Of a stretch of 64,000 nt of DNA, positions 1 to 29,607 are shown one piece after another. The stretch spans positions 2,232,001-2,296,000 of the forward strand of contig CM039007.1 of assembly GCA_017499595.2 (NCBI GenBank), given 5' to 3'. Source of the stretch: Psilocybe cubensis. Its lineage: Eukaryota. The position numbers were made by a program, and so were the translations under genes. Positions within the stretch are counted from its first letter, which is position 1, and each line of letters starts with the position of its first letter. A model generated the notes under the pieces. The model was given only the letters and a program-made list of their open reading frames with translations, was not told where the DNA came from and ran no database searches.

Positions 1-2449
1 CAACTGGAGCACGCTGGCGGCGTGCAGGCTTAGGAGGAGGTGCAGGAACGGCCTCAGGCTGTGGCGGTTCAGCTGGCTGTTCAGGAGGCGCAATAGGCAC
101 TTCTGGCTCAATGACAGGACTTGGAGTAGAGTCATCCTCATCATCATCAAAATTGAAGCCATTAGAGTCCCCCCCTGAATTGGGAGGTGGTGCACTTGCA
201 GAAGAAGTGGGAAGAAGGTCAAACTTTGGCATAGGGCCAGTGGACACCCCAGGGAAGCACCTTTCGTCGAAATCAGCTCTCTCAGAGATAATGAACCTTT
301 TGGTGACTGGGTTGTAAAACTCCCAGCCCTTGTACCCAGTAGGATACCCAACAAAGATACACTTCTCCATATGAGGCTGCAACGATTTGCGCTTATCTCC
401 CTGAACATAAACATATGCAAGACAACCCCAAACCCTCAAATGACTAACATCAGGTTTGCGCTTGTTCCAGCTTTCATACGGAGTCTTGTCCGGTAGAGGA
501 GCTGTAGGAACACGATTCCATACATGCATGTATGCTGCAACACAGCGACCCCAAAACGAAGGTGGTACACGAGCCTCATTGAGCATGGAAGTAACATGTT
601 CTGCCATGGTGCGATTTGCACGCTCTGCAACTCCGTTCTGTTGTGGGCGATTTCGCGTTGTATGACGACGCTCAATGCCACACTGGTCAGTGAATTTGAT
701 GAAAGCATTTGACATGTATTCACCAGCTTTGTCATCCTGCAGCGCTTTGATCTTAAAGCCTAATTTGTTCTCAGCCCATGCTTTGTACGTTTGAAACGCA
801 CTGAATGCATCGCTTTTGCGCTTAAGAAGCACAGCAGCTCTACTCTTTGTATGGTCATCAATAAAGGTTATCCAGTAGCGATAGCCTTCAGGAGTAGGGG
901 GCGAGATAGGACCTTTCAGATCTGAGAAGATAAGCGCAAGCGGAACATCTGACATGCTTGGTGAAGAAGGAAATGGGTTGGAATGCATCTTGCCTGCAAG
1001 GCAAGGTTCACAAATGGGGTCAGGCTGTTGCTGTGAATTCAGCTTGAGTCCGGTGACCATACCCTCTCTAATCATCTTCTGGATATCAGTGTAGCTATGA
1101 TGAGCAAAGCGACGATGCCAGAGACTGATATCAAGGGGTAGAGTGGAATTGGAGGAAATGAAGGCAGATTCCGAAATAGGAACTGTATAACCGTTCAATA
1201 AAGCGCAGTTTGATGTACTAACATCTGCAGAGAAGAGACAAGCTCCTTTGCGATGAAACTCCATCAGATTAGCATCAATGGTGATTTTGAAGCCTTTGTG
1301 CTTTGTGAGATATAGAACAGACAGTAGATTGTTTCGGAGATCTGGTACATGTAAAACTCTAGTTAACTCGACGCCTCTTGACTTTATTCCATTTACAACT
1401 GGTTCAAAGAACACAGTGCCCACCCCTGCAGAATAAATAACTCGTTCATCTACTAATCGGATTGGAATGCGAAGGGGGGTGTAATTTCTAACCCAATTGC
1501 GATGGGGCGTCATATGAGAAGTCGCCCCTGTGTCTGCAATCCAATCGTCATTAGTTTGGGGTGAAATGGAAGAGGGAACATCGGTATTAAGAGCACTTGC
1601 ATTTCCAGCAAATTCCACGTCCTTGGACTCTTTTTCCTCACTGGATGCCTCTGAGGCCTTGTGCGCTCTATTGCCTTTGCGAGCCGCTTTGACACGCTCC
1701 TTCGCATCCTTTTGCGCAGCAATGAACTTGTGACACTTGTCCATTGCATGGTTGGTCATGTCACAAAATGCGCACTTGGGCTTGGATGCAGAAGGGGCTG
1801 GAGCGGTCTGGAACGCGGTGGCGAGTGCAGGCAACTCCGAAGCGCGGCGACGTCGCTGTATGTCCTCTGTGAAAAAGGCTTGATGAATTGTAGCCTTGTC
1901 CAACTTGTCCAAAAGGAGAAGTGAGGATGCAAATGAACTGTACTCTTCTGGGAGTGCCCTGACCAGAGCAAGCGAAGCAAGCTCTTCATCAAGCTTAGCC
2001 AGATCAAACCCCTTAGGGCGAAGCTGCTGAATTAGCAACATGGCTTGCTCAACTCTATTGATCAGGGTTTGAAGGTTTTCACCTTCCTCCTTTTGGATTG
2101 AGAACAGATCATCATATGCATTAAAGCGGTTGCCAGGGCGCTTTTGCTGATGTACAGCAGCGAGGGCATCCCACATCTTGATAGGATCATCCTTGATGGC
2201 TTCCACATGAACCCTCTGATCATTCTCCAAACTGAGATAGATCAAACCACATGCTTTGTCTCTCTGCTCAAAGTAGATTTCAAGCAAAGCTTCCTCCTGA
2301 GCAGTGGGCTTGTCTGAGAGCGTTGGCTGTGCTCTAGCACCGCTGACAATGCGCCATATCCCTTTAGACTGGAGATAGGCGGTCATCTGGCCTGCCCAGG
2401 TGTTGTAGTTGGTTGAGTTCAATGGAGTGATTTGGGGATCAGAAGTCAT
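1..2449 (-). CDS. Ty1/copia Gag-PR-IN polyprotein of the longer copy; continues past integrase and runs off the left edge
   Basis: Same ATG (cat at 2447-2449) and sequence as the 753-aa repeats. After RFIIS it continues ERADFDERCFPG... into a Pro/acidic linker instead of entering an LTR; no stop seen in the window. Confidence 0.85.
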   Translation of the reverse strand, partial: MTSDPQITPLNSTNYNTWAGQMTAYLQSKGIWRIVSGARAQPTLSDKPTAQEEALLEIYFEQRDKACGLIYLSLENDQRVHVEAIKDDPIKMWDALAAVHQQKRPGNRFNAYDDLFSIQKEEGENLQTLINRVEQAMLLIQQLRPKGFDLAKLDEELASLALVRALPEEYSSFASSLLLLDKLDKATIHQAFFTEDIQRRRRASELPALATAFQTAPAPSASKPKCAFCDMTNHAMDKCHKFIAAQKDAKERVKAARKGNRAHKASEASSEEKESKDVEFAGNASALNTDVPSSISPQTNDDWIADTGATSHMTPHRNWVRNYTPLRIPIRLVDERVIYSAGVGTVFFEPVVNGIKSRGVELTRVLHVPDLRNNLLSVLYLTKHKGFKITIDANLMEFHRKGACLFSADVSTSNCALLNGYTVPISESAFISSNSTLPLDISLWHRRFAHHSYTDIQKMIREGMVTGLKLNSQQQPDPICEPCLAGKMHSNPFPSSPSMSDVPLALIFSDLKGPISPPTPEGYRYWITFIDDHTKSRAAVLLKRKSDAFSAFQTYKAWAENKLGFKIKALQDDKAGEYMSNAFIKFTDQCGIERRHTTRNRPQQNGVAERANRTMAEHVTSMLNEARVPPSFWGRCVAAYMHVWNRVPTAPLPDKTPYESWNKRKPDVSHLRVWGCLAYVYVQGDKRKSLQPHMEKCIFVGYPTGYKGWEFYNPVTKRFIISERADFDERCFPGVSTGPMPKFDLLPTSSASAPPPNSGGDSNGFNFDDDEDDSTPSPVIEPEVPIAPPEQPAEPPQPEAVPAPPPKPARRQRAPV

Positions 2450-2840
2450 TATTGCGAATTGCGAAGGAACGCCTAAGCGGATGGATACGAGTGTTGGTAG
2501 TAATGTGTGGGGATGTGTAATGATGTGTGGAAACGAACTAGGCGTTACCCGGAGCTCGGGGTGCGATGCAAACGCAAGTTGAAAAGACGAAGTTAAACTA
2601 GCCTAATTTAAAAGGGTTACTTTTAACTAGAAATAACTCGGGGATTAGGCGACGGGGGCCCGCTCAACCGAGGTTAACAAGTCGCGTAAGGCGTGCTTGT
2701 TCAACCCTACTAGCAGCGGCAATGTATGGCCGGGCCTGGTAGAGGATAAAAAGCAAAAAGGACTAAAATGACCGTTTTGTGAAAACTATGCAGAAAGCAA
2801 CTTGGTTCGCAAAATACGGAATTGGAGCGCTTAGAGCGCG

Positions 2841-2852
2841 GGGCCCATAACC
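2841..2852 (-). promoter_or_regulatory. Primer-binding site GGTTATGGGCCC (internal tRNA-iMet, half-tRNA type), repeated at +2950 in the next five units
   Basis: Directly abuts the CA end of the LTR on the minus strand; matches the known copia/hemivirus PBS. Confidence 0.85.
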
Positions 2853-3231
2853 TGTTGAAGCAGGCGAGCTCGGGGCAGTGTGAGCTACTCGGCGACCTAG
2901 TTATAGAACGTAGGGGTGCAGGGATAAGCAAGCACGAAGCGTCTGAAGTCCGAAGTGAGTAACTGGGTGAATTGAGCAAAGTGCTAACAAACTAACCTGA
3001 AGTCCGAAGTGAGTAACTGGGGACTTCAGGATGTAAACTAGAGTGACTATATACTGTGTAGACTCAAGTACTCTGGTCTACCTAGGTCTACTCTGGCCCG
3101 GTCCAGACCAGTCTCTGGACTGATAAATATCATGTGTCTAGAATGGTCTGGAGAGCAAATGAAGATAAGAAGAAAGTAATCTAATCTGATAAGATAGCAA
3201 AGTGAGGGAGACATAGAAAGCAGTTTTAACA
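2853..3231 (-). repeat. Copia LTR 1 (379 bp, TGTTAAAA...TTCAACA)
   Basis: TG...CA termini, followed by the PBS; internal 25-bp duplication ctgaagtccgaagtgagtaactggg. Confidence 0.92.
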
Positions 3232-5399
3232 TCAGAGATAATGAACCTTTTGGTGACTGGGTTGTAAAACTCCCAGCCCTTGTACCCAGTAGGATACCCA
3301 ACAAAGATACACTTCTCCATATGAGGCTGCAACGATTTGCGCTTATCTCCCTGAACATAAACATATGCAAGACAACCCCAAACCCTCAAATGACTAACAT
3401 CAGGTTTGCGCTTGTTCCAGCTTTCATACGGAGTCTTGTCCGGTAGAGGAGCTGTAGGAACACGATTCCATACATGCATGTATGCTGCAACACAGCGACC
3501 CCAAAACGAAGGTGGTACACGAGCCTCATTGAGCATGGAAGTAACATGTTCTGCCATGGTGCGATTTGCACGCTCTGCAACTCCGTTCTGTTGTGGGCGA
3601 TTTCGCGTTGTATGACGACGCTCAATGCCACACTGGTCAGTGAATTTGATGAAAGCATTTGACATGTATTCACCAGCTTTGTCATCCTGCAGCGCTTTGA
3701 TCTTAAAGCCTAATTTGTTCTCAGCCCATGCTTTGTACGTTTGAAACGCACTGAATGCATCGCTTTTGCGCTTAAGAAGCACAGCAGCTCTACTCTTTGT
3801 ATGGTCATCAATAAAGATTATCCAGTAGCGATAGCCTTCAGGAGTAGGGGGCGAGATAGGACCTTTCAGATCTGAGAAGATAAGCGCAAGCGGAACATCT
3901 GACATGCTTGGTGAAGAAGGAAATGGGTTGGAATGCATCTTGCCTGCAAGGCAAGGTTCACAAATGGGGTCAGGCTGTTGCTGTGAATTCAGCTTGAATC
4001 CGGTGACCATACCCTCTCTAATCATCTTCTGGATATCAGTGTAGCTATGATGAGCAAAGCGACGATGCCAGAGACTGATATCAAGGGGTAGAGTGGAATT
4101 GGAGGAAATGAAGGCAGATTCCGAAATAGGAACTGTATAACCGTTCAATAAAGCGCAGTTTGATGTACTAACATCTGCAGAGAAGAGACAAGCTCCTTTG
4201 CGATGAAACTCCATCAGATTAGCATCAATGGTGATTTTGAAGCCTTTGTGCTTTGTGAGATATAGAACAGACAGTAGATTGTTTCGGAGATCTGGTACAT
4301 GTAAAACTCTAGTTAACTCGACGCCTCTTGACTTTATTCCATTTACAACTGGTTCAAAGAACACAGTGCCCACCCCTGCAGAATAAATAACTCGTTCATC
4401 TGCTAATCGGATTGGAATGCGAAGGGGGGTGTAATTTCTAACCCAATTGCGATGGGGCGTCATATGAGAAGTCGCCCCTGTGTCTGCAATCCAATCGTCA
4501 TTAGTTTGGGGTGAAATGGAAGAGGGAACATCGGTATTAAGAGCACTTGCATTTCCAGCAAATTCCATGTCCTTGGACTCTTTTTCCTCACTGGATGCCT
4601 CTGAGGCCTTGTGCGCTCTATTGCCTTTGCGAGCCGCTTTGACACGCTCCTTCGCATCCTTTTGCGCAGCAATGAACTTGTGACACTTGTCCATTGCATG
4701 GTTGGTCATGTCACAAAATGCGCACTTGGGCTTGGATGCAGAAGGGGCTGGAGCGGTCTGGAACGCGGTGGCGAGTGCAGGCAACTCCGAAGCGCGGCGA
4801 CGTCGCTGTATGTCCTCTGTGAAAAAGGCTTGATGAATTGTAGCCTTGTCCAACTTGTCCAAAAGGAGAAGTGAGGATGCAAATGAACTGTACTCTTCTG
4901 GGAGTGCCCTGACCAGAGCAAGCGAAGCAAGCTCTTCATCAAGCTTAGCCAGATCAAACCCCTTAGGGCGAAGCTGCTGAATTAGCAACATGGCTTGCTC
5001 AACTCTATTGATCAGGGTTTGAAGGTTTTCACCTTCCTCCTTTCGGATTGAGAACAGATCATCATATGCATTAAAGCGGTTGCCAGGGCGCTTTTGCTGA
5101 TGTACAGCAGCGAGGGCATGCCACATCTTGATAGGATCATCCTTGATGGCTTCCACATGAATCCTCTGATCATTCTCCAAACTGAGATAGATCAAACCAC
5201 ATGCTTTGTCTCTGTGCTCAAAGTAGGTTTCAAGCAAAGCTTCCTCCTGAGCAGTAGGCTTGTCTGAGAGCGTTGGCTGTGCTCTAGCACCGCTGATAAT
5301 GTGCCATATCCCTTTAGACTGGAGATAGGCGGTCATCTGGCCTGCCCAGGTGTTGTAGTTGGTTGAGTTCAATGGAGTGATTTGGGGATCAGAAGTCAT
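3138..5399 (-). CDS. Truncated copia Gag-protease-integrase, 753 aa, no RT/RNase H; stop lies inside the downstream LTR
   Basis: Gag N-term (LNSTNYNTW), CxxC-x4-H-x4-C knuckle, protease WIADTGATSHMT, LWHRRFAH..CEPC, integrase core (FSDL / QDDKAG / NGVAERANRT), HLRVWGC. Confidence 0.93.
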   Translation of the reverse strand: MTSDPQITPLNSTNYNTWAGQMTAYLQSKGIWHIISGARAQPTLSDKPTAQEEALLETYFEHRDKACGLIYLSLENDQRIHVEAIKDDPIKMWHALAAVHQQKRPGNRFNAYDDLFSIRKEEGENLQTLINRVEQAMLLIQQLRPKGFDLAKLDEELASLALVRALPEEYSSFASSLLLLDKLDKATIHQAFFTEDIQRRRRASELPALATAFQTAPAPSASKPKCAFCDMTNHAMDKCHKFIAAQKDAKERVKAARKGNRAHKASEASSEEKESKDMEFAGNASALNTDVPSSISPQTNDDWIADTGATSHMTPHRNWVRNYTPLRIPIRLADERVIYSAGVGTVFFEPVVNGIKSRGVELTRVLHVPDLRNNLLSVLYLTKHKGFKITIDANLMEFHRKGACLFSADVSTSNCALLNGYTVPISESAFISSNSTLPLDISLWHRRFAHHSYTDIQKMIREGMVTGFKLNSQQQPDPICEPCLAGKMHSNPFPSSPSMSDVPLALIFSDLKGPISPPTPEGYRYWIIFIDDHTKSRAAVLLKRKSDAFSAFQTYKAWAENKLGFKIKALQDDKAGEYMSNAFIKFTDQCGIERRHTTRNRPQQNGVAERANRTMAEHVTSMLNEARVPPSFWGRCVAAYMHVWNRVPTAPLPDKTPYESWNKRKPDVSHLRVWGCLAYVYVQGDKRKSLQPHMEKCIFVGYPTGYKGWEFYNPVTKRFIISDVKTAFYVSLTLLSYQIRLLSSYLHLLSRPF

Positions 5400-5802
5400 T
5401 ATTGCGAATTGCGAAGGAACGCCTAAGCGGATGGATACGAGTGTTGGTAGTAATGTGTGGGGATGTGTAATGATGTGTGGAAACGAACTAGGCGTTACCC
5501 GGAGCTCGGGGTGCGATGCAAACGCAAGTTGAAAAGACGAAGTTAAACTAGCCTAATTTAAAAGGGTTACTTTTAACTAGAAATAACTCGGGGATTAGGC
5601 GACGGGGGCCCGCTCAACCGAGGTTAACAAGTCGCGTAAGGCGTGCTTGTTCAACCCTACTAGCAGCGGCAATGTATGGCCGGGCCTGGTAGAGGATAAA
5701 AAGCAAAAAGGACTAAAATGACCGTTTTGTGAAAACTATGCAGAAAGCAACTTGGTTCGCAAAATACGGAATTGGAGCGCTTAGAGCGCGGGGCCCATAA
5801 CC

Positions 5803-6181
5803 TGTTGAAGCAGGCGAGCTCGGGGCAGTGTGAGCTACTCGGCGACCTAGTTATAGAACGTAGGGGTGCAGGGATAAGCAAGCACGAAGCGTCTGAAGTC
5901 CGAAGTGAGTAACTGGGTGAATTGAGCAAAGTGCTAACAAACTAACCTGAAGTCCGAAGTGAGTAACTGGGGACTTCAGGATGTAAACTAGAGTGACTAT
6001 ATACTGTGTAGACTCAAGTACTCTGGTCTACCTAGGTCTACTCTGGCCCGGTCCAGACCAGTCTCTGGACTGATAAATATCATGTGTCTAGAATGGTCTG
6101 GAGAGCAAATGAAGATAAGAAGAAAGTAATCTAATCTGATAAGATAGCAAAGTGAGGGAGACATAGAAAGCAGTTTTAACA
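5803..6181 (-). repeat. Copia LTR 2
   Basis: Copy of 2853-3231 at +2950. Confidence 0.92.
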
Positions 6182-8349
6182 TCAGAGATAATGAACCTTT
6201 TGGTGACTGGGTTGTAAAACTCCCAGCCCTTGTACCCAGTAGGATACCCAACAAAGATACACTTCTCCATATGAGGCTGCAACGATTTGCGCTTATCTCC
6301 CTGAACATAAACATATGCAAGACAACCCCAAACCCTCAAATGACTAACATCAGGTTTGCGCTTGTTCCAGCTTTCATACGGAGTCTTGTCCGGTAGAGGA
6401 GCTGTAGGAACACGATTCCATACATGCATGTATGCTGCAACACAGCGACCCCAAAACGAAGGTGGTACACGAGCCTCATTGAGCATGGAAGTAACATGTT
6501 CTGCCATGGTGCGATTTGCACGCTCTGCAACTCCGTTCTGTTGTGGGCGATTTCGCGTTGTATGACGACGCTCAATGCCACACTGGTCAGTGAATTTGAT
6601 GAAAGCATTTGACATGTATTCACCAGCTTTGTCATCCTGCAGCGCTTTGATCTTAAAGCCTAATTTGTTCTCAGCCCATGCTTTGTACGTTTGAAACGCA
6701 CTGAATGCATCGCTTTTGCGCTTAAAAAGCACAGCAGCTCTACTCTTTGTATGGTCATCAATAAAGATTATCCAGTAGCGATAGCCTTCAGGAGTAGGGG
6801 GCGAGATAGGACCTTTCAGATCTGAGAAGATAAGCGCAAGCGGAACATCTGACATGCTTGGTGAAGAAGGAAATGGGTTGGAATGCATCTTGCCTGCAAG
6901 GCAAGGTTCACAAATGGGGTCAGGCTGTTGCTGTGAATTCAGCTTGAATCCGGTGACCATACCCTCTCTAATCATCTTCTGGATATCAGTGTAGCTATGA
7001 TGAGCAAAGCGACGATGCCAGAGACTGATATCAAGGGGTAGAGTGGAATTGGAGGAAATGAAGGCAGATTCCGAAATAGGAACTGTATAACCGTTCAATA
7101 AAGCGCAGTTTGATGTACTAACATCTGCAGAGAAGAGACAAGCTCCTTTGCGATGAAACTCCATCAGATTAGCATCAATGGTGATTTTGAAGCCTTTGTG
7201 CTTTGTGAGATATAGAACAGACAGTAGATTGTTTCGGAGATCTGGTACATGTAAAACTCTAGTTAACTCGACGCCTCTTGACTTTATTCCATTTACAACT
7301 GGTTCAAAGAACACAGTGCCCACCCCTGCAGAATAAATAACTCGTTCATCTGCTAATCGGATTGGAATGCGAAGGGGGGTGTAATTTCTAACCCAATTGC
7401 GATGGGGCGTCATATGAGAAGTCGCCCCTGTGTCTGCAATCCAATCGTCATTAGTTTGGGGTGAAATGGAAGAGGGAACATCGGTATTAAGAGCACTTGC
7501 ATTTCCAGCAAATTCCATGTCCTTGGACTCTTTTTCCTCACTGGATGCCTCTGAGGCCTTGTGCGCTCTATTGCCTTTGCGAGCCGCTTTGACACGCTCC
7601 TTCGCATCCTTTTGCGCAGCAATGAACTTGTGACACTTGTCCATTGCATGGTTGGTCATGTCACAAAATGCGCACTTGGGCTTGGATGCAGAAGGGGCTG
7701 GAGCGGTCTGGAACGCGGTGGCGAGTGCAGGCAACTCCGAAGCGCGGCGACGTCGCTGTATGTCCTCTGTGAAAAAGGCTTGATGAATTGTAGCCTTGTC
7801 CAACTTGTCCAAAAGGAGAAGTGAGGATGCAAATGAACTGTACTCTTCTGGGAGTGCCCTGACCAGAGCAAGCGAAGCAAGCTCTTCATCAAGCTTAGCC
7901 AGATCAAACCCCTTAGGGCGAAGCTGCTGAATTAGCAACATGGCTTGCTCAACTCTATTGATCAGGGTTTGAAGGTTTTCACCTTCCTCCTTTCGGATTG
8001 AGAACAGATCATCATATGCATTAAAGCGGTTGCCAGGGCGCTTTTGCTGATGTACAGCAGCGAGGGCATGCCACATCTTGATAGGATCATCCTTGATGGC
8101 TTCCACATGAACCCTCTGATCATTCTCCAAACTGAGATAGATCAAACCACATGCTTTGTCTCTGTGCTCAAAGTAGGTTTCAAGCAAAGCTTCCTCCTGA
8201 GCAGTAGGCTTGTCTGAGAGCGTTGGCTGTGCTCTAGCACCGCTGATAATGTGCCATATCCCTTTAGACTGGAGATAGGCGGTCATCTGGCCTGCCCAGG
8301 TGTTGTAGTTGGTTGAGTTCAATGGAGTGATTTGGGGATCAGAAGTCAT
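6088..8349 (-). CDS. Truncated copia Gag-PR-IN, 753 aa
   Basis: ORF track; near-identical to 3138-5399. Confidence 0.93.
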   Translation of the reverse strand: MTSDPQITPLNSTNYNTWAGQMTAYLQSKGIWHIISGARAQPTLSDKPTAQEEALLETYFEHRDKACGLIYLSLENDQRVHVEAIKDDPIKMWHALAAVHQQKRPGNRFNAYDDLFSIRKEEGENLQTLINRVEQAMLLIQQLRPKGFDLAKLDEELASLALVRALPEEYSSFASSLLLLDKLDKATIHQAFFTEDIQRRRRASELPALATAFQTAPAPSASKPKCAFCDMTNHAMDKCHKFIAAQKDAKERVKAARKGNRAHKASEASSEEKESKDMEFAGNASALNTDVPSSISPQTNDDWIADTGATSHMTPHRNWVRNYTPLRIPIRLADERVIYSAGVGTVFFEPVVNGIKSRGVELTRVLHVPDLRNNLLSVLYLTKHKGFKITIDANLMEFHRKGACLFSADVSTSNCALLNGYTVPISESAFISSNSTLPLDISLWHRRFAHHSYTDIQKMIREGMVTGFKLNSQQQPDPICEPCLAGKMHSNPFPSSPSMSDVPLALIFSDLKGPISPPTPEGYRYWIIFIDDHTKSRAAVLFKRKSDAFSAFQTYKAWAENKLGFKIKALQDDKAGEYMSNAFIKFTDQCGIERRHTTRNRPQQNGVAERANRTMAEHVTSMLNEARVPPSFWGRCVAAYMHVWNRVPTAPLPDKTPYESWNKRKPDVSHLRVWGCLAYVYVQGDKRKSLQPHMEKCIFVGYPTGYKGWEFYNPVTKRFIISDVKTAFYVSLTLLSYQIRLLSSYLHLLSRPF

Positions 8350-12081: not shown

Positions 12082-14249
12082 TCAGAGATAATGAACCTTT
12101 TGGTGACTGGGTTGTAAAACTCCCAGCCCTTGTACCCAGTAGGATACCCAACAAAGATACACTTCTCCATATGAGGCTGCAACGATTTGCGCTTATCTCC
12201 CTGAACATAAACATATGCAAGACAACCCCAAACCCTCAAATGACTAACATCAGGTTTGCGCTTGTTCCAGCTTTCATACGGAGTCTTGTCCGGTAGAGGA
12301 GCTGTAGGAACACGATTCCATACATGCATGTATGCTGCAACACAGCGACCCCAAAACGAAGGTGGTACACGAGCCTCATTGAGCATGGAAGTAACATGTT
12401 CTGCCATGGTGCGATTTGCACGCTCTGCAACTCCGTTCTGTTGTGGGCGATTTCGCGTTGTATGACGACGCTCAATGCCACACTGGTCAGTGAATTTGAT
12501 GAAAGCATTTGACATGTATTCACCAGCTTTGTCATCCTGCAGCGCTTTGATCTTAAAGCCTAATTTGTTCTCAGCCCATGCTTTGTACGTTTGAAACGCA
12601 CTGAATGCATCGCTTTTGCGCTTAAGAAGCACAGCAGCTCTACTCTTTGTATGGTCATCAATAAAGATTATCCAGTAGCGATAGCCTTCAGGAGTAGGGG
12701 GCGAGATAGGACCTTTCAGATCTGAGAAGATAAGCGCAAGCGGAACATCTGACATGCTTGGTGAAGAAGGAAATGGGTTGGAATGCATCTTGCCTGCAAG
12801 GCAAGGTTCACAAATGGGGTCAGGCTGTTGCTGTGAATTCAGCTTGAATCCGGTGACCATACCCTCTCTAATCATCTTCTGGATATCAGTGTAGCTATGA
12901 TGAGCAAAGCGACGATGCCAGAGACTGATATCAAGGGGTAGAGTGGAATTGGAGGAAATGAAGGCAGATTCCGAAATAGGAACTGTATAACCGTTCAATA
13001 AAGCGCAGTTTGATGTACTAACATCTGCAGAGAAGAGACAAGCTCCTTTGCGATGAAACTCCATCAGATTAGCATCAATGGTGATTTTGAAGCCTTTGTG
13101 CTTTGTGAGATATAGAACAGACAGTAGATTGTTTCGGAGATCTGGTACATGTAAAACTCTAGTTAACTCGACGCCTCTTGACTTTATTCCATTTACAACT
13201 GGTTCAAAGAACACAGTGCCCACCCCTGCAGAATAAATAACTCGTTCATCTGCTAATCGGATTGGAATGCGAAGGGGGGTGTAATTTCTAACCCAATTGC
13301 GATGGGGCGTCATATGAGAAGTCGCCCCTGTGTCTGCAATCCAATCGTCATTAGTTTGGGGTGAAATGGAAGAGGGAACATCGGTATTAAGAGCACTTGC
13401 ATTTCCAGCAAATTCCATGTCCTTGGACTCTTTTTCCTCACTGGATGCCTCTGAGGCCTTGTGCGCTCTATTGCCTTTGCGAGCCGCTTTGACACGCTCC
13501 TTCGCATCCTTTTGCGCAGCAATGAACTTGTGACACTTGTCCATTGCATGGTTGGTCATGTCACAAAATGCGCACTTGGGCTTGGATGCAGAAGGGGCTG
13601 GAGCGGTCTGGAACGCGGTGGCGAGTGCAGGCAACTCCGAAGCGCGGCGACGTCGCTGTATGTCCTCTGTGAAAAAGGCTTGATGAATTGTAGCCTTGTC
13701 CAACTTGTCCAAAAGGAGAAGTGAGGATGCAAATGAACTGTACTCTTCTGGGAGTGCCCTGACCAGAGCAAGCGAAGCAAGCTCTTCATCAAGCTTAGCC
13801 AGATCAAACCCCTTAGGGCGAAGCTGCTGAATTAGCAACATGGCTTGCTCAACTCTATTGATCAGGGTTTGAAGGTTTTCACCTTCCTCCTTTCGGATTG
13901 AGAACAGATCATCATATGCATTAAAGCGGTTGCCAGGGCGCTTTTGCTGATGTACAGCAGCGAGGGCATGCCACATCTTGATAGGATCATCCTTGATGGC
14001 TTCCACATGAACCCTCTGATCATTCTCCAAACTGAGATAGATCAAACCACATGCTTTGTCTCTGTGCTCAAAGTAGGTTTCAAGCAAAGCTTCCTCCTGA
14101 GCAGTAGGCTTGTCTGAGAGCGTTGGCTGTGCTCTAGCACCGCTGATAATGTGCCATATCCCTTTAGACTGGAGATAGGCGGTCATCTGGCCTGCCCAGG
14201 TGTTGTAGTTGGTTGAGTTCAATGGAGTGATTTGGGGATCAGAAGTCAT
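11988..14249 (-). CDS. Truncated copia Gag-PR-IN, 753 aa
   Basis: ORF track. Confidence 0.93.
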   Translation of the reverse strand: MTSDPQITPLNSTNYNTWAGQMTAYLQSKGIWHIISGARAQPTLSDKPTAQEEALLETYFEHRDKACGLIYLSLENDQRVHVEAIKDDPIKMWHALAAVHQQKRPGNRFNAYDDLFSIRKEEGENLQTLINRVEQAMLLIQQLRPKGFDLAKLDEELASLALVRALPEEYSSFASSLLLLDKLDKATIHQAFFTEDIQRRRRASELPALATAFQTAPAPSASKPKCAFCDMTNHAMDKCHKFIAAQKDAKERVKAARKGNRAHKASEASSEEKESKDMEFAGNASALNTDVPSSISPQTNDDWIADTGATSHMTPHRNWVRNYTPLRIPIRLADERVIYSAGVGTVFFEPVVNGIKSRGVELTRVLHVPDLRNNLLSVLYLTKHKGFKITIDANLMEFHRKGACLFSADVSTSNCALLNGYTVPISESAFISSNSTLPLDISLWHRRFAHHSYTDIQKMIREGMVTGFKLNSQQQPDPICEPCLAGKMHSNPFPSSPSMSDVPLALIFSDLKGPISPPTPEGYRYWIIFIDDHTKSRAAVLLKRKSDAFSAFQTYKAWAENKLGFKIKALQDDKAGEYMSNAFIKFTDQCGIERRHTTRNRPQQNGVAERANRTMAEHVTSMLNEARVPPSFWGRCVAAYMHVWNRVPTAPLPDKTPYESWNKRKPDVSHLRVWGCLAYVYVQGDKRKSLQPHMEKCIFVGYPTGYKGWEFYNPVTKRFIISDVKTAFYVSLTLLSYQIRLLSSYLHLLSRPF

Positions 14250-14652
14250 TATTGCGAATTGCGAAGGAACGCCTAAGCGGATGGATACGAGTGTTGGTAG
14301 TAATGTGTGGGGATGTGTAATGATGTGTGGAAACGAACTAGGCGTTACCCGGAGCTCGGGGTGCGATGCAAACGCAAGTTGAAAAGACGAAGTTAAACTA
14401 GCCTAATTTAAAAGGGTTACTTTTAACTAGAAATAACTCGGGGATTAGGCGACGGGGGCCCGCTCAACCGAGGTTAACAAGTCGCGTAAGGCGTGCTTGT
14501 TCAACCCTACTAGCAGCGGCAATGTATGGCCGGGCCTGGTAGAGGATAAAAAGCAAAAAGGACTAAAATGACCGTTTTGTGAAAACTATGCAGAAAGCAA
14601 CTTGGTTCGCAAAATACGGAATTGGAGCGCTTAGAGCGCGGGGCCCATAACC

Positions 14653-15031
14653 TGTTGAAGCAGGCGAGCTCGGGGCAGTGTGAGCTACTCGGCGACCTAG
14701 TTATAGAACGTAGGGGTGCAGGGATAAGCAAGCACGAAGCGTCTGAAGTCCGAAGTGAGTAACTGGGTGAATTGAGCAAAGTGCTAACAAACTAACCTGA
14801 AGTCCGAAGTGAGTAACTGGGGACTTCAGGATGTAAACTAGAGTGACTATATACTGTGTAGACTCAAGTACTCTGGTCTACCTAGGTCTACTCTGGCCCG
14901 GTCCAGACCAGTCTCTGGACTGATAAATATCATGTGTCTAGAATGGTCTGGAGAGCAAATGAAGATAAGAAGAAAGTAATCTAATCTGATAAGATAGCAA
15001 AGTGAGGGAGACATAGAAAGCAGTTTTAACA
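14653..15031 (-). repeat. Copia LTR 5
   Basis: Copy at +11800. Confidence 0.92.
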
Positions 15032-17199
15032 TCAGAGATAATGAACCTTTTGGTGACTGGGTTGTAAAACTCCCAGCCCTTGTACCCAGTAGGATACCCA
15101 ACAAAGATACACTTCTCCATATGAGGCTGCAACGATTTGCGCTTATCTCCCTGAACATAAACATATGCAAGACAACCCCAAACCCTCAAATGACTAACAT
15201 CAGGTTTGCGCTTGTTCCAGCTTTCATACGGAGTCTTGTCCGGTAGAGGAGCTGTAGGAACACGATTCCATACATGCATGTATGCTGCAACACAGCGACC
15301 CCAAAACGAAGGTGGTACACGAGCCTCATTGAGCATGGAAGTAACATGTTCTGCCATGGTGCGATTTGCACGCTCTGCAACTCCGTTCTGTTGTGGGCGA
15401 TTTCGCGTTGTATGACGACGCTCAATGCCACACTGGTCAGTGAATTTGATGAAAGCATTTGACATGTATTCACCAGCTTTGTCATCCTGCAGCGCTTTGA
15501 TCTTAAAGCCTAATTTGTTCTCAGCCCATGCTTTGTACGTTTGAAACGCACTGAATGCATCGCTTTTGCGCTTAAGAAGCACAGCAGCTCTACTCTTTGT
15601 ATGGTCATCAATAAAGGTTATCCAGTAGCGATAGCCTTCAGGAGTAGGGGGCGAGATAGGACCTTTCAGATCTGAGAAGATAAGCGCAAGCGGAACATCT
15701 GACATGCTTGGTGAAGAAGGAAATGGGTTGGAATGCATCTTGCCTGCAAGGCAAGGTTCACAAATGGGGTCAGGCTGTTGCTGTGAATTCAGCTTGAATC
15801 CGGTGACCATACCCTCTCTAATCATCTTCTGGATATCAGTGTAGCTATGATGAGCAAAGCGACGATGCCAGAGACTGATATCAAGGGGTAGAGTGGAATT
15901 GGAGGAAATGAAGGCAGATTCCGAAATAGGAACTGTATAACCGTTCAATAAAGCGCAGTTTGATGTACTAACATCTGCAGAGAAGAGACAAGCTCCTTTG
16001 CGATGAAACTCCATCAGATTAGCATCAATGGTGATTTTGAAGCCTTTGTGCTTTGTGAGATATAGAACAGACAGTAGATTGTTTCGGAGATCTGGTACAT
16101 GTAAAACTCTAGTTAACTCGACGCCTCTTGACTTTATTCCATTTACAACTGGTTCAAAGAACACAGTGCCCACCCCTGCAGAATAAATAACTCGTTCATC
16201 TGCTAATCGGATTGGAATGCGAAGGGGGGTGTAATTTCTAACCCAATTGCGATGGGGCGTCATATGAGAAGTCGCCCCTGTGTCTGCAATCCAATCGTCA
16301 TTAGTTTGGGGTGAAATGGAAGAGGGAACATCGGTATTAAGAGCACTTGCATTTCCAGCAAATTCCATGTCCTTGGACTCTTTTTCCTCACTGGATGCCT
16401 CTGAGGCCTTGTGCGCTCTATTGCCTTTGCGAGCCGCTTTGACACGCTCCTTCGCATCCTTTTGCGCAGCAATGAACTTGTGACACTTGTCCATTGCATG
16501 GTTGGTCATGTCACAAAATGCGCACTTGGGCTTGGATGCAGAAGGGGCTGGAGCGGTCTGGAACGCGGTGGCGAGTGCAGGCAACTCCGAAGCGCGGCGA
16601 CGTCGCTGTATGTCCTCTGTGAAAAAGGCTTGATGAATTGTAGCCTTGTCCAACTTGTCCAAAAGGAGAAGTGAGGATGCAAATGAACTGTACTCTTCTG
16701 GGAGTGCCCTGACCAGAGCAAGCGAAGCAAGCTCTTCATCAAGCTTAGCCAGATCAAACCCCTTAGGGCGAAGCTGCTGAATTAGCAACATGGCTTGCTC
16801 AACTCTATTGATCAGGGTTTGAAGGTTTTCACCTTCCTCCTTTCGGATTGAGAACAGATCATCATATGCATTAAAGCGGTTGCCAGGGCGCTTTTGCTGA
16901 TGTACAGCAGCGAGGGCATGCCACATCTTGATAGGATCATCCTTGATGGCTTCCACATGAACCCTCTGATCATTCTCCAAACTGAGATAGATCAAACCAC
17001 ATGCTTTGTCTCTGTGCTCAAAGTAGGTTTCAAGCAAAGCTTCCTCCTGAGCAGTAGGCTTGTCTGAGAGCGTTGGCTGTGCTCTAGCACCGCTGATAAT
17101 GTGCCATATCCCTTTAGACTGGAGATAGGCGGTCATCTGGCCTGCCCAGGTGTTGTAGTTGGTTGAGTTCAATGGAGTGATTTGGGGATCAGAAGTCAT
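14938..17199 (-). CDS. Truncated copia Gag-PR-IN, 753 aa
   Basis: ORF track. Confidence 0.93.
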   Translation of the reverse strand: MTSDPQITPLNSTNYNTWAGQMTAYLQSKGIWHIISGARAQPTLSDKPTAQEEALLETYFEHRDKACGLIYLSLENDQRVHVEAIKDDPIKMWHALAAVHQQKRPGNRFNAYDDLFSIRKEEGENLQTLINRVEQAMLLIQQLRPKGFDLAKLDEELASLALVRALPEEYSSFASSLLLLDKLDKATIHQAFFTEDIQRRRRASELPALATAFQTAPAPSASKPKCAFCDMTNHAMDKCHKFIAAQKDAKERVKAARKGNRAHKASEASSEEKESKDMEFAGNASALNTDVPSSISPQTNDDWIADTGATSHMTPHRNWVRNYTPLRIPIRLADERVIYSAGVGTVFFEPVVNGIKSRGVELTRVLHVPDLRNNLLSVLYLTKHKGFKITIDANLMEFHRKGACLFSADVSTSNCALLNGYTVPISESAFISSNSTLPLDISLWHRRFAHHSYTDIQKMIREGMVTGFKLNSQQQPDPICEPCLAGKMHSNPFPSSPSMSDVPLALIFSDLKGPISPPTPEGYRYWITFIDDHTKSRAAVLLKRKSDAFSAFQTYKAWAENKLGFKIKALQDDKAGEYMSNAFIKFTDQCGIERRHTTRNRPQQNGVAERANRTMAEHVTSMLNEARVPPSFWGRCVAAYMHVWNRVPTAPLPDKTPYESWNKRKPDVSHLRVWGCLAYVYVQGDKRKSLQPHMEKCIFVGYPTGYKGWEFYNPVTKRFIISDVKTAFYVSLTLLSYQIRLLSSYLHLLSRPF

Positions 17200-17602
17200 T
17201 ATTGCAAATTGCGAAGGAACGCCTAAGCGGATGGATACGAGTGTTGGTAGTAATGTGTGGGGATGTGTAATGATGTGTGGAAACGAACTAGGCGTTACCC
17301 GGAGCTCGGGGTGCGATGCAAACGCAAGTTGAAAAGACGAAGTTAAACTAGCCTAATTTAAAAGGGTTACTTTTAACTAGAAATAACTCGGGGATTAGGC
17401 GACGGGGGCCCGCTCAACCGAGGTTAACAAGTCGCGTAAGGCGTGCTTGTTCAACCCTACTAGCAGCGGCAATGTATGGCCGGGCCTGGTAGAGGATAAA
17501 AAGCAAAAAGGACTAAAATGACCGTTTTGTGAAAACTATGCAGAAAGCAACTTGGTTCGCAAAATACGGAATTGGAGCGCTTAGAGCGCGGGGCCCATAA
17601 CC

Positions 17603-17981
17603 TGTTGAAGCAGGCGAGCTCGGGGCAGTGTGAGCTACTCGGCGACCTAGTTATAGAACGTAGGGGTGCAGGGATAAGCAAGCACGAAGCGTCTGAAGTC
17701 CGAAGTGAGTAACTGGGTGAATTGAGCAAAGTGCTAACAAACTAACCTGAAGTCCGAAGTGAGTAACTGGGGACTTCAGGATGTAAACTAGAGTGACTAT
17801 ATACTGTGTAGACTCAAGTACTCTGGTCTACCTAGGTCTACTCTGGCCCGGTCCAGACCAGTCTCTGGACTGATAAATATCATGTGTCTAGAATGGTCTG
17901 GAGAGCAAATGAAGATAAGAAGAAAGTAATCTAATCTGATAAGATAGCAAAGTGAGGGAGACATAGAAAGCAGTTTTAACA
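17603..17981 (-). repeat. Copia LTR 6
   Basis: Copy at +14750. Confidence 0.92.
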
Positions 17982-20149
17982 TCAGAGATAATGAACCTTT
18001 TGGTGACTGGGTTGTAAAACTCCCAGCCCTTGTACCCAGTAGGATACCCAACAAAGATACACTTTTCCATATGAGGCTGCAACGATTTGCGCTTATCTCC
18101 CTGAACATAAACATATGCAAGACAACCCCAAACCCTCAAATGACTAACATCAGGTTTGCGCTTGTTCCAGCTTTCATACGGAGTCTTGTCCGGTAGAGGA
18201 GCTGTAGGAACACGATTCCATACATGCATGTATGCTGCAACACAGCGACCCCAAAACGAAGGTGGAACACGAGCCTCATTGAGCATGGAAGTAACATGTT
18301 CTGCCATGGTGCGATTTGCACGCTCTGCAACTCCGTTCTGTTGTGGGCGATTTCGCGTTGTATGACGACGCTCAATGCCACACTGGTCAGTGAATTTGAT
18401 GAAAGCATTTGACATGTATTCACCAGCTTTGTCATCCTGTAGCGCTTTGATCTTAAAGCCTAATTTGTTCTCAGCCCATGCTTTGTACGTTTGAAACGCA
18501 CTGAATGCATCGCTTTTGCGCTTAAGAAGCACAGCAGCTCTACTCTTTGTATGGTCATCAATAATGGTTATCCAGTAGCAATAGCCTTCAGGAGTAGGGG
18601 GCGAGATAGGACCTTTCAGATCTGAGAAGATAAGCGCAAGCGGAACATCTGACATGCTTGGTGAAGAAAGAAATGGGTTGGAATGCATCTTGCCTGCAAG
18701 GCAAGGTTCACAAATAGGGTCAGGCTGTTGCTGTGAATTCAGCTTGAGTCCGGTGACCATACCCTCTCTAATCATCTTCTGGATGTCAGTGTAGCTATGA
18801 TGAGCAAACCGACGATGCCAGAGACTGATATCAAGGGGTAGAGTGGAATTGGAGGAAATGAAGGCAGATTCCGAAATAGGAACTGTATAACCGTTCAATA
18901 AAGCGCAGTTTGATGTACTAACATCTGCAGAGAAGAGACAAGCTCCTTTGCAATAAAACTCCATCAGATTAGCATCAATGGTGATTTTGAAGCCTTTGTG
19001 CTTTGTGAGGTATAGAACAGACAGTAGATTGTTTCGGAGATCTGGTACATGTAAAACTCTAGTTAACTCGACGCCTCTTGACTTTATTCCATTTACAACT
19101 GGTTCAAAGAACACAGTGCCCACCCCTGCAGAATAAATAACTCGTTCATCTACTAATCGGATTGGAATGCGAAGGGGGGTGTAATTTCTAACCCAATTGC
19201 GATGGGGCGTCATATGAGAAGTCGCCCCTGTGTCTGCAATCCAATCGTCATTAGTTTGGGGTGAAATGGAAGAGGGAACATCGGTATTAAGAGCACTTGC
19301 ATTTCCAGCAAATTCCATGTCCTTGGACTCTTTTTCCTCACTGGATGCCTCTGAGGCCTTGTGCGCTCTATTGCCTTTGCGAGCCGCTTTGACACGCTCC
19401 TTCGCATCCTTTTGCGCAGCAATGAACTTGTGACACTTGTCCATTGCATGGTTGGTCATGTCACAAAATGCGCACTTGGGCTTGGATGCAGAAGGGGCTG
19501 GAGCGGTCTGGAACGCGGTGGCGAGTGCAGGCAACTCCGAAGCGCGGCGACGTCGCTGTATGTCCTCTGTGAAAAAGGCTTGATGAATTGTAGCCTTGTC
19601 CAACTTGTCCAAAAGGAGAAGTGAGGATGCAAATGAACTGTACTCTTCTGGGAGTGCCCTGACCAGAGCAAGCGAAGCAAGCTCTTCATCAAGCTTAGCC
19701 AGATCAAACCCCTTAGGGCGAAGCTGCTGAATTAGCAACATGGCTTGCTCAACTCTATTGATCAGGGTTTGAAGGTTTTCACCTTCCTCCTTTCGGATTG
19801 AGAACAGATCATCATATGCATTAAAGCGGTTGCCAGGGCGCTTTTGCTGATGTACAGCAGCGAGGGCATGCCACATCTTGATAGGATCATCCTTGATGGC
19901 TTCCACATGAACCCTCTGATCATTCTCCAAACTGAGATAGATCAAACCACATGCTTTGTCTCTGTGCTCAAAGTAGGTTTCAAGCAAAGCTTCCTCCTGA
20001 GCAGTAGGCTTGTCTGAGAGCGTTGGCTTTGCTCTAGCACCGCTGACAATGCGCCATATCCCTTTAGACTGGAGATAGGCGGACATCTGGCCTGCCCAAG
20101 TGTTGTAGTTGGTTGAGTTCAATGGAGTAATTTGGGGATCAGAAGTCAT
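17888..20149 (-). CDS. Truncated copia Gag-PR-IN, most diverged unit (753 aa from the ATG at 20149)
   Basis: ORF track 17888-20209 starts at a non-ATG codon; the homologous ATG (MTSDPQ) is at 20149. Confidence 0.9.
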   Translation of the reverse strand: MTSDPQITPLNSTNYNTWAGQMSAYLQSKGIWRIVSGARAKPTLSDKPTAQEEALLETYFEHRDKACGLIYLSLENDQRVHVEAIKDDPIKMWHALAAVHQQKRPGNRFNAYDDLFSIRKEEGENLQTLINRVEQAMLLIQQLRPKGFDLAKLDEELASLALVRALPEEYSSFASSLLLLDKLDKATIHQAFFTEDIQRRRRASELPALATAFQTAPAPSASKPKCAFCDMTNHAMDKCHKFIAAQKDAKERVKAARKGNRAHKASEASSEEKESKDMEFAGNASALNTDVPSSISPQTNDDWIADTGATSHMTPHRNWVRNYTPLRIPIRLVDERVIYSAGVGTVFFEPVVNGIKSRGVELTRVLHVPDLRNNLLSVLYLTKHKGFKITIDANLMEFYCKGACLFSADVSTSNCALLNGYTVPISESAFISSNSTLPLDISLWHRRFAHHSYTDIQKMIREGMVTGLKLNSQQQPDPICEPCLAGKMHSNPFLSSPSMSDVPLALIFSDLKGPISPPTPEGYCYWITIIDDHTKSRAAVLLKRKSDAFSAFQTYKAWAENKLGFKIKALQDDKAGEYMSNAFIKFTDQCGIERRHTTRNRPQQNGVAERANRTMAEHVTSMLNEARVPPSFWGRCVAAYMHVWNRVPTAPLPDKTPYESWNKRKPDVSHLRVWGCLAYVYVQGDKRKSLQPHMEKCIFVGYPTGYKGWEFYNPVTKRFIISDVKTAFYVSLTLLSYQIRLLSSYLHLLSRPF

Positions 20150-20383
20150 TATTGCAAATTGCGAAGGAACGCTCAGTGGATAGATACAAGTGTTGGTTAA
20201 TGTGTACAAATGAGTAATAATGTGTTAAAACAAACTAGGTGTTACCTGGAGCTCAGAATGCAATGTGAATGCAAGTTGAAAAGACAAAGTTAAACTAGGG
20301 TTACTTTTAACTAGAAATAATATGGGGATTAGGCGACGGGGGCCCGCTCAACCGAGGTTAACAAGTCGCGTAAGGCATGCTCG

Positions 20384-20761
20384 TGTTGAAGCAGGCAAGC
20401 TTGGGGCAGTGTGAGCTACTCGGCGACCTAGTTATAGAATGTAGGGCGCAGGGATAAGCGAGCACGAAGCATCTGAAGTCCGAAGTGAGTAACTGGGTGA
20501 ATTGAGCAAAGTGCTAACAAACTAACCTGAAGTCCGAAGTGAGTAACTGGGAACTTCAGGATGTAAACTAGAGTGACTATATACTATGTAGACTCAAGTA
20601 CTCTGGTCTACCTAGGTCTACTCTGGTCCGGTCCAGACCAGTCTATGGACTGATAAATATCATGTGTCTAGAATGGTCTGGAGAGCAAATGAAGATAAGA
20701 AGAAAGTAATCTAATCTGATAAGATAGCAAAGTGAGGAAGACATAGGGAGCAGTTTTAGCA
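20384..20761 (-). repeat. Copia LTR 7 (outer, more diverged); adjacent PBS and ~155 bp of leader deleted
   Basis: tgttgaagcagg...ttttagca joined directly to leader sequence ...taaggcatgctcg. Confidence 0.88.
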
Positions 20762-29594: not shown

Positions 29595-29607
29595 GAACAG
29601 ATAGAAT

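What the first reader, a model, noticed from the sequence alone, without database searches (positions are those of the whole stretch)
282..20761. Retrotransposon-derived macrosatellite: 2950-bp copia units sharing single LTRs
Seen: six units all break at the same integrase position (...ATCTCTGA|TGTTAAAAC on the minus strand), joined exactly to the LTR terminus. The leftmost copy continues normally and the rightmost is the most diverged. An exact LTR-end junction implies an integrase-made joint. Inference, model A: a young copy inserted into an older same-family copy and the resulting direct repeat expanded by unequal exchange. Model B: an autointegration circle was amplified and recombined in.
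Basis: partly seen in the sequence, partly recalled or inferred. Interest (0 to 1): 0.75.

Follow-up and report, generated by a model that had tools for sequence, protein, structure and literature searches.

The report
Self-nested centromere-type copia tandem array
In a mushroom genome, a jumping gene that gathers at one spot on each chromosome (probably the centromere) appears to have landed inside a copy of itself, and the resulting half-copy was then multiplied into a seven-unit, 20-kb tandem array, a small fungal case of a route to satellite DNA known from plants and animals.

Summary
Confirmed: seven head-to-tail Ty1/copia units (period 2950 bp), with six identical joints where integrase sequence meets LTR base 1 without microhomology. 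Left of the window the last unit runs through RT-RNase H to a 3' LTR. One 5-bp TSD (GGAAC) encloses the whole array, with no TCTGA duplicate. Other evidence favours nesting. The internal LTR is a different haplotype from the outer pair. All 6 paired antisense self-joints in the genome have insertion geometry, not inversion-circle geometry. Reads of another strain show a paired same-orientation self-joint with a 5-bp overlap. New context: 90 of 90 LTR-motif matches lie in one cluster on each of 13 large contigs, as for reported centromeric copias of mushrooms. Four clusters carry tandem arrays, three built on one-sided same-orientation self-joints. The array's private alleles are absent from two other strains' reads. 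The scan had already described two sister arrays elsewhere in this genome. Verdict: a new variant of a known kind (retrotransposon-derived tandem repeats), of interest because a recent atlas found no satellite architectures in fungi. Centromere identity is inferred, not tested.

The parts
20762..20766 (-). Target-site duplication GGAAC. Its partner follows the 3' LTR left of the window (next to C10:2229860). It lies in an older, antisense copy of the same family (element positions 3261/3265).
20384..20761 (-). Outer 5' LTR of host element A (378 bp). It is the sister of the 3' LTR left of the window: 8 differences, and three shared alleles that the internal LTRs lack.
17982..20761 (-). Unit U1, the host copy up to the joint. 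It has a 153-bp deletion that removes the PBS (LTR end joined to position 533) and a heavily mutated leader at about 20000-20383.
15032..17981 (-). Unit U2: LTR 17603-17981, PBS, leader, gag-PR-IN cut in the SH3-like domain
12082..15031 (-). Unit U3 (LTR 14653-15031)
9132..12081 (-). Unit U4 (LTR 11703-12081). It carries a U1-type tract at unit positions 2352-2492 (about window 9590-9730), a mark of exchange between units.
6182..9131 (-). Unit U5 (LTR 8753-9131)
3232..6181 (-). Unit U6 (LTR 5803-6181). Its frame is 753 codons from ATG and ends about 30 codons into the next LTR, as in U1-U5.
282..3231 (-). Unit U7 (LTR 2853-3231, PBS 2841-2852, ATG 2449); it continues past the joint site
1..281 (-). 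Continuation of U7. It runs on left of the window through RT, RNase H, the PPT and the 3' LTR (C10:2229860-2230237).
20762..21639 (+). Decayed fragments (about 88% identity) of the older same-family copy into which host A inserted in antisense. The other half lies at C10:2229574-2229860 (82%).
22930..23236 (+). Decayed LTR of the same family

Best explanation
The family is a Ty1/copia element that inserts almost only into one region per chromosome, most likely the centromere, and so often lands in its own kin. Step 1 (shown): element A inserted antisense into an older copy and made the TSD GGAAC. Step 2 (inferred): a second copy B, with a different LTR haplotype, integrated into A in the same orientation at the SH3 part of integrase. 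This gave A(1-2950)|B(whole)|A(2946-end), which contains two direct repeats. Step 3 (inferred): recombination removed the downstream repeat, either within the nest or against an un-nested allele of A. That left one joint and the outer TSD. Step 4 (partly shown): the remaining two-unit repeat aged as a dead copy. It was then expanded recently to seven units by unequal exchange or gene conversion, which also mixed alleles between units. The unit lacks a PPT, RT and RNase H, so it cannot retrotranspose by itself. The array is most likely a neutral, strain-specific product of host recombination acting on same-orientation self-nests.
For: (1) The outer LTRs are sisters: 8 of 378 differences, sharing 176T, 323A and 366T. 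The internal LTR lacks these alleles and differs from them at 15 and 11 positions, so it is not a copy of A's own LTR. (2) A census of LTR ends in 659 kb around all 13 clusters found 17 antisense self-joint events. Six are paired with a 5-bp TSD, and in 6 of 6 both LTRs are on the same strand. That is insertion geometry; an inversion circle would put them on opposite strands (circle types from PMC4751563 passages, geometry derived by me). (3) Same-orientation events number 6; none is paired and 3 are amplified (x6, x3, x11), against 0 of 17 antisense events with 3 or more tandem copies (Fisher p=0.011, post hoc). The 6:17 orientation deficit has p=0.035. (4) Raw reads of another strain (X21) show an LTR end joined to position 785 (18 reads) and an LTR start joined to position 789 (8 reads), a same-orientation pair with a 5-bp overlap, which is the predicted precursor. 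(5) U1 differs from U2-U7 both in 1-903 and in 1922-2867, to within 83 bp of the joint, and U4 carries a U1-type tract. (6) U2-U6 share 16 private substitutions; 6 of the 8 coding ones are non-synonymous, against 0 of 7 for alleles shared with other copies. The units differ from each other by only 0.14%. (7) The C3 cluster has a three-unit, 6376-bp array built on a solo LTR plus a neighbouring element, with no self-joint, so unequal exchange is active in these clusters. (8) 90 of 90 LTR-motif matches fall in 13 clusters totalling 345 kb of 45.6 Mb, while other copia RTs are dispersed.
Against: No intact same-orientation nest exists in this assembly (0 of 6), and the paired-versus-unpaired contrast alone is not significant (p=0.14). 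The downstream TCTGA joint is absent, so the collapse step is inferred. No donor for B was found among the 33 non-array segments compared, and family haplotypes are too recombinant to assign the tail to A or B. Some alleles do not fit a single crossover: 1780T is in U1 and U7 only, and 1359T and 1472C are in all seven units, so conversion must be added. The X21 pair is not phased by short reads, and 53 joints were not displayed. In the C4 array all LTRs are identical or differ by 1 base, which a circle from the element's own cDNA would also give. One of the 6 same-orientation events (C3 2594) has 6 bases of microhomology and may be a deletion. Centromere identity was not tested.
Confidence: 0.62

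Rival explanations
1. Circle capture. Autointegration of a cDNA from another copy made a one-LTR deletion circle (LTR to position 2950). The circle recombined into A and was amplified before or after capture.
For: It gives the same joint and the same outer TSD. One-LTR truncated circles are a described product of Ty autointegration (PMC4751563, passages). Run X1 holds the unit as one closed 2981-nt contig with the array's alleles and without flanks. The C4 array's LTRs are near-identical to its host's.
Against: 0 of 6 paired antisense self-joints have inversion-circle geometry. A single crossover predicts that U1 matches the internal units downstream of the crossover, but U1 differs from them up to position 2867 of 2950. 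The units are not clonal: they are mosaics that exchanged tracts with U1. In the yeast eccDNA study only one read fitted autointegration (PMC4751563, passage). The X1 loop is also what a tandem array collapses to in an assembly graph.
Confidence: 0.2
2. One-ended capture. The left end of a linear cDNA was joined at position 2950, by integrase acting on one end only or by end-joining at a break. The rest was resolved by homologous recombination with A, giving the two-unit form in one step. Expansion followed as in the main model.
For: It explains a single exact joint, no second TSD and a foreign LTR haplotype without a collapse step. The PPT and PBS abut the LTR, so LTR base 1 is probably the free cDNA end (inference). 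cDNA recombination into pre-existing elements is frequent for Tf1 (PMC11042837, passages).
Against: The Tf1 tandems described in the passages read mostly keep whole elements separated by one LTR and arise at PBS/PPT homology, not at an arbitrary internal site. Two-ended self-insertion is directly seen here six times, plus once in X21.
Confidence: 0.12
3. Assembly artefact: only one or two units exist and the rest are mis-assembled.
For: No spanning long read of this sample was examined. The C4 units are identical (0 differences) and most C2 units are too. Two other strains lack the array's alleles.
Against: Each C10 unit has its own alleles, and several are shared in phase between units (436, 776, 2352, 2367, 2492). 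Run X1 contains the joint inside a closed loop of unit length at word depth 4.4; that run may be related to the assembled sample.
Confidence: 0.04
4. Selected function: the array is kept because it expresses RT-less Gag-PR-IN or RNA that restrains the family, or because it strengthens the centromere.
For: All six truncated units keep a 753-codon open frame with the integrase catalytic motifs. Athila-derived arrays bind CENH3 in Rosa (atlas preprint, section 9).
Against: 6 of 8 private coding changes are non-synonymous, as expected for neutral decay. So few changes make an open frame unremarkable. The array is absent from two other strains. No expression data were examined.
Confidence: 0.05

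Closest known systems
[quoted passage not shown]
   Same: A monomer made from the LTR-side part of a centromeric LTR element, arrays in or near centromeres, growth attributed to conversion or unequal exchange; the authors raise nested insertions as a possible origin.
   Different: Gypsy in a plant; monomers of about 0.7-1.4 kb contain part of the LTR plus UTR and are modelled as illegitimate-recombination deletions. Here it is a copia in a fungus, with a 2950-bp monomer holding a whole LTR and gag-PR-IN, a joint exactly at LTR base 1, and an enclosing TSD still visible.
Tandem TEs by double insertion, then unequal exchange (McGurk and Barbash, PMC5932611; passages read)
   Same: Insertion preference puts two copies together and host recombination expands them; 'tail-to-internal' joints are noted as possibly due to nested insertions.
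   Different: Their dimers are side by side with a TSD inside the joint. Here the second copy is inside the first, and only one of its two joints survives.
Tandem LTR-RTs of plants (PMC11899658) and Tf1/Tf2 tandems of fission yeast (PMC11042837); passages read
   Same: Units share single LTRs and the whole array has one TSD.
   Different: Those alternate LTRs with internal regions through LTR-LTR or PBS/PPT homology. Here each unit is cut at a non-homologous internal site and has no PPT (5 of 15 purines before the joint versus 13 of 15 at the true PPT). A shared-LTR tandem of their kind does occur in this genome at C11:1049303.
Centromeric copia elements of mushrooms: GlCEN427 of Ganoderma leucocontextum (PMC10817607) and Copia-28 of Agaricus bisporus (PMC7473861); passages read
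   Same: A copia family confined to one repeat cluster on every chromosome; the Agaricus paper notes truncation by jumping into the same type of element.
   Different: In the main texts, 'nested' occurs 0 times in both and 'tandem' 0 times in the Agaricus paper; the Ganoderma passages shown describe no arrays of truncated units. Homology to those families was not tested.
Athila-derived 1.6-2.2 kb arrays in Rosa canina centromeres, class ii of the centromere atlas (10.64898/2026.09.17.752431; passages and section 9 read)
   Same: A satellite-like array made from a sub-sequence of one centrophilic retrotransposon.
   Different: Those arrays are 43-239 kb and CENH3-bound. The atlas reports the route for plants and animals and saw no satellite architectures in its 49 fungi. 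The arrays here are about 13-52 kb and untested for CENP-A.

Membership tests
Ty1/copia LTR retrotransposon | Domain order gag-PR-IN-RT-RH in one frame | tested here: met
   Pfam on units; RVT_2 at C10:2231039-2231770 in the same long open frame; 1382-codon ORF
Ty1/copia LTR retrotransposon | LTRs TG...CA with PBS, PPT and a 5-bp TSD | tested here: met
Tandem LTR-RT (shared LTR, one TSD) | Alternating LTR and internal region, starting and ending with an LTR, one TSD | tested here: met
Tandem LTR-RT (shared LTR, one TSD) | Units formed through LTR or PBS/PPT homology, so that each internal LTR is preceded by the PPT | tested here: not met
   All six internal LTRs are preceded by integrase sequence, with no PPT and 0 microhomology
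Non-autonomous tandem retroelement (TRIM-like) | Unit has both PBS and PPT, so it can be reverse-transcribed in trans | tested here: not met
   PBS present, PPT absent; the TRIM definition is recalled
Centromeric (centrophilic) retrotransposon | One cluster per chromosome, absent elsewhere | tested here: met
   90 of 90 motif matches in 13 clusters of at most 83 kb, at 19-80% of contig length
Centromeric (centrophilic) retrotransposon | Young nested insertions of the same family | tested here: met
   6 paired antisense self-nests, plus unpaired joints
Centromeric (centrophilic) retrotransposon | Low-GC, CpG-depleted surroundings | tested here: met
   The three 5-kb bins right of the array have 33-38% GC and CpG o/e 0.16-0.26, versus 0.75-1.10 some 20-40 kb to the left
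Centromeric (centrophilic) retrotransposon | CENP-A occupancy or centromeric Hi-C contacts | not testable with these tools
   No ChIP or Hi-C data available
Centromeric (centrophilic) retrotransposon | Contigs are whole chromosomes | tested here: inconclusive
   C1-C13 hold 45.6 of 46.6 Mb; an exact eight-copy TTAGGG pattern (recalled motif) found 0 matches
Captured autointegration circle | One LTR end joined exactly to an internal site in the same orientation | tested here: met
   also expected from nesting
Captured autointegration circle | Companion inversion-circle products captured in the genome | tested here: not met
   0 of 6 paired antisense joints
Satellite DNA / macrosatellite | Head-to-tail, homogenised monomers | tested here: met
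   U2-U6 99.8-99.97% identical, with exchange tracts
Satellite DNA / macrosatellite | High copy number, shared across chromosomes or the population | tested here: not met
   7 units at one locus; each cluster's array has a different monomer; the private alleles are absent from X21 and X22

The most novel reading that the evidence does not exclude
Self-targeting by a centrophilic copia is a standing source of satellite-like arrays in mushroom centromeres. Antisense self-insertions persist as nests, while same-orientation ones are unstable and either vanish or leave one integrase joint that recombination multiplies. Four of 13 putative centromeres in this one genome would then be caught at the first step of the transposon-to-satellite transition, which a 325-genome atlas did not see completed in fungi. 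The arrays would be CENP-A-bound and would turn over between strains.
Probability: 0.35. Interest if true: 0.7.

Novelty: new variant of a known kind. Interest (0 to 1): 0.45.

Why it matters
How centromeric satellites first arise from transposons is usually inferred from old, large arrays whose origin is erased. Here the founding joint, the enclosing TSD, both parental haplotypes, a likely precursor in another strain and three sister arrays are all still readable in a 46-Mb genome. The orientation rule (antisense nests persist, same-orientation nests resolve into one-joint repeats) can be tested directly with long reads across strains. It also bears on why fungi appear to lack satellite centromeres: arrays do start, so the block would lie in their growth or persistence. 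The ingredients (nesting, unequal exchange, TE-derived tandem repeats, centromeric copias in mushrooms) are each already described.

Tried and rejected
The TSD was rejected as a discriminator between models, by geometry. A microhomology deletion was rejected for this joint (0 bases). A circle or daughter from A's own cDNA was rejected for this array by LTR haplotypes. Assigning the tail to A or B by subfamily markers failed because the family is too recombinant. A search for a donor of U1's mutated leader found no match above 89% among the 40 of 55 candidates scored. The telomere pattern search gave 0 matches and was uninformative. In the census I dropped two same-orientation calls as simple deletions (C6 at 4989, C10 at 533). 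I counted the two ends of one C5 solo LTR as one antisense event. I left two C7 ends as non-family because they scored 28-29 of 40, below the cut of 32. Literature searches that returned no description of such arrays in fungal centromeres: 2 papers held, 1 listed, on rDNA; 3 papers; 0 papers; 13 held, 10 listed, none on this; I judged these from listings only. The library lacks most subscription papers, and the atlas preprint's supplements were not seen and may list fungal cases. No structure or complex prediction was run, as none was needed.
Full report
Observation. Self-comparison shows a 2950-bp period from 282 to 20384. On the minus strand six joints read ATCTCTGA|TGTTAAAA, at 17982, 15032, 12082, 9132, 6182 and 3232. 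At 282 the same site continues as integrase sequence. Each unit is a 379-bp LTR, a PBS, a leader and a gag-PR-IN frame cut in the SH3-like domain. The frame is 753 codons in U1-U6 and keeps the catalytic motifs. U2-U6 differ at 1-7 sites, U7 at 11-15, and U1 at 60-66. The joint has no microhomology and no polypurine tract. Named homologues are Agaricomycete copia polyproteins, for example Agrocybe (70% over 55% of the query) and Sparassis (55% over 93%). Earlier scan notes label the genome Psilocybe-like; I did not check that.

Left of the window U7 continues through RT and RNase H to a PPT and a 3' LTR at C10:2229860-2230237. That LTR is followed by GGAAC, the same five bases that precede the outer 5' LTR at 20762-20766. 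There is no second TCTGA. The array therefore lies inside one insertion, A, which itself sits antisense in an older family copy at positions 3261/3265. This meets model B's prediction and fails model A as written. It does not decide the matter. A same-orientation nest, A(1-t) B(whole) A(t-4 to end), holds two direct repeats. Losing the downstream repeat leaves the outer TSD and one joint, the same product as circle capture (my derivation).

Haplotypes. The outer LTRs differ at 8 of 378 sites and share three alleles that the internal LTRs lack. The internal LTR differs from them at 15 and 11 positions. So the internal LTR came from another copy, B. Against 33 non-array segments, U2-U6 share 16 private substitutions; 6 of the 8 coding ones are non-synonymous, whereas all 7 coding alleles shared with other copies are synonymous. 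One of the 16, position 759, lies beside an indel and may be an alignment effect. This fits a dead copy that aged (about 0.5% private change, versus about 1% per LTR for A) and then expanded recently (0.14% between units). U1 differs from U2-U7 in 1-903 and again in 1922-2867, but matches U2-U6 in 904-1779. U4 carries a U1-type tract at 2352-2492. A single crossover with a circle predicts that U1 matches the internal units all the way to the joint, which it does not. Neither model explains every allele without added gene conversion (1780T in U1 and U7 only; 1359T and 1472C in all seven). Subfamily markers could not assign the tail.

Genome context. A 25-base LTR motif has 90 matches, and all 90 lie in one cluster on each of contigs C1-C13. 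The clusters span 345 kb of 45.6 Mb, the largest 83 kb, none near a contig end; the reversed control has 0 matches. Other copia RTs are dispersed, including 12 equal-scoring copies of another family on 9 contigs (150 of 152 matches listed). The DNA right of the array has 33-38% GC and CpG o/e 0.16-0.26. This matches the pattern reported for GlCEN427 in Ganoderma (PMC10817607, passages) and Copia-28 in Agaricus (PMC7473861, passages), both in putative centromeres. Centromere identity here is an inference; I put it at about 80%.

Census of self-joints. In 659 kb around the 13 clusters I classified LTR ends by their flanks. There are 17 antisense events. Six are paired with a 5-bp TSD, and in all six both LTRs lie on the same strand, as for a true insertion. 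An inverted autointegration circle (a product type listed in PMC4751563, passages) recombined into a resident copy would put them on opposite strands (my derivation). There are 6 same-orientation events after dropping two deletions. None is paired, and three are amplified: C10 x6 (this array), C4 x3 (period 4484, joint in RNase H, outer TSD CAAAG) and C2 x11 (period 4714, LTR end joined to LTR position 319). Amplification to 3 or more copies is 3 of 6 versus 0 of 17 (p=0.011); orientation 6:17 gives p=0.035; pairing 0 of 6 versus 6 of 17 gives p=0.14. These tests are post hoc and on small numbers. The clusters were not fetched in full, and one same-orientation event (C3 2594) has 6 bases of microhomology. 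A fourth array, on C3 (three units, period 6376), is built on a solo LTR plus a neighbouring element with no self-joint, and C11 has a shared-LTR tandem. Unequal exchange between direct repeats is therefore common in these clusters.

Other datasets. Four of 22 listed runs were laid on window 17900-22800. In raw reads X21 and X22 (26-29% of each run read) the array's private alleles are essentially absent. At 17968, 676 of 676 and 556 of 556 reads show the other base; at 19964, 1235 of 1235 and 1136 of 1137. The flank is covered at roughly 25-45x. The array is thus strain-specific. These strains show other LTR-to-internal joints in both orientations. In X21 an LTR end joined to position 785 (18 reads; 13 in X22) and an LTR start joined to position 789 (8 reads) overlap by five bases, the signature of an intact same-orientation nest. 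Short reads do not phase the pair, and 53 joints were not displayed. Run X1 yields one 2981-nt contig that is a closed loop of the unit, with the array's alleles, word depth 4.4 and no flank. I read it as a few long molecules with several tandem units, or a collapsed array; a free circle is not excluded, and X1 may be related to the assembled sample. Together with phased unit-specific alleles, this makes an artefact unlikely, but spanning reads were not seen.

Mechanism. Most likely (0.62): centromere-directed integration, then same-orientation self-insertion, loss of the downstream repeat, ageing and recent unequal expansion. The first insertion, the foreign LTR, inter-unit exchange and frequent self-insertion are shown. 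The intact nest at this locus and its collapse are inferred. Rivals are circle capture (0.2), one-ended cDNA capture resolved by recombination (0.12), selected function (0.05) and artefact (0.04).

Comparison. It works like maize CRM-derived tandem repeats (PMC3648361, passages and section 5) and like double-insertion tandems (PMC5932611, passages). It is not a canonical tandem LTR-RT (PMC11899658, PMC11042837, passages), because units are cut at a non-homologous site and lack a PPT. The centromere atlas (10.64898/2026.09.17.752431, passages and section 9; supplements not seen) describes arrays from retrotransposon sub-sequences in plants and animals and saw no satellite architectures in fungi. 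Arrays of 13-52 kb do not overturn that, but they show the first step. Searches returned no account of such arrays in fungal centromeres (judged from listings); supplied the comparisons. The scan had earlier described arrays that match the C4 and C2 cases.

Verdict. The feature is real, of a known kind, and a new variant by host and by the readable one-joint origin. Interest 0.45.

Noticed in passing
window 20000-20383: U1's leader has 33 substitutions in 356 bases (24 of them C>T or G>A, 13 at CpG). That is far more than either LTR of the same element, and no donor above 89% was found. Unexplained local hypermutation.
   Followed up: partly
G000:C2:2200908-2258753 (L006-L011): An array with 11 joints (period 4714) sits antisense in a copy that has the same 352-bp integrase deletion. 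X21 and X22 show an LTR start joined near LTR position 324, a near-partner of its joint at 319 with a 6-bp rather than 5-bp overlap.
   Followed up: partly
G000:C4:2864808-2883614 (L013-L015): An array with the same plan: three identical 4484-bp units and outer TSD CAAAG. Its outer antisense joint (position 1823) also appears in X21 and X22 reads.
   Followed up: yes
G000:C3:1517915-1537420 (L023-L025): A three-unit array (period 6376) of a whole element plus about 1.06 kb of spacer, apparently from exchange between a solo LTR and a neighbouring 3' LTR.
   Followed up: partly
G000:C1:3675935-3693911 and C5:1797274-1815419: Multiply nested copies with secondary duplications of joints; at C1 the inner and middle copies share one haplotype.
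   Followed up: partly
window 2941-3023 (inside each LTR): The LTR holds a 25-bp direct repeat with a 54-bp period, and X21 and X22 have reads lacking those 54 bases. It may be the intron-plus-spliced-copy module that earlier scan notes describe in copia LTRs of this genome.
   Followed up: no
window 46114-52320: A KDZ-type transposase (CxC2 and KDZ domains) lies next to an oppositely oriented TET/JBP dioxygenase frame, between 290-bp inverted repeats at 38019-38308 and 52978-53267. Probably a TET/JBP-carrying DNA transposon of a described kind.
   Followed up: no
window 55314-59779: A pair of about 970-bp inverted repeats (96.9%) encloses 277-bp direct repeats and a frame with a KH-domain hit; a related 470-bp piece lies at 29129-29597.
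   Followed up: no
window 38930-39389: A 36-bp tandem repeat, 12.8 copies, inside an open frame with no Pfam hit.
   Followed up: no
run X1 laid on window 17900-22800: The only contig laid is a closed loop of the unit with the array's alleles, without other family haplotypes or flank. It could be a trace long molecule, a much larger array in that source, or a free circle.
   Followed up: partly
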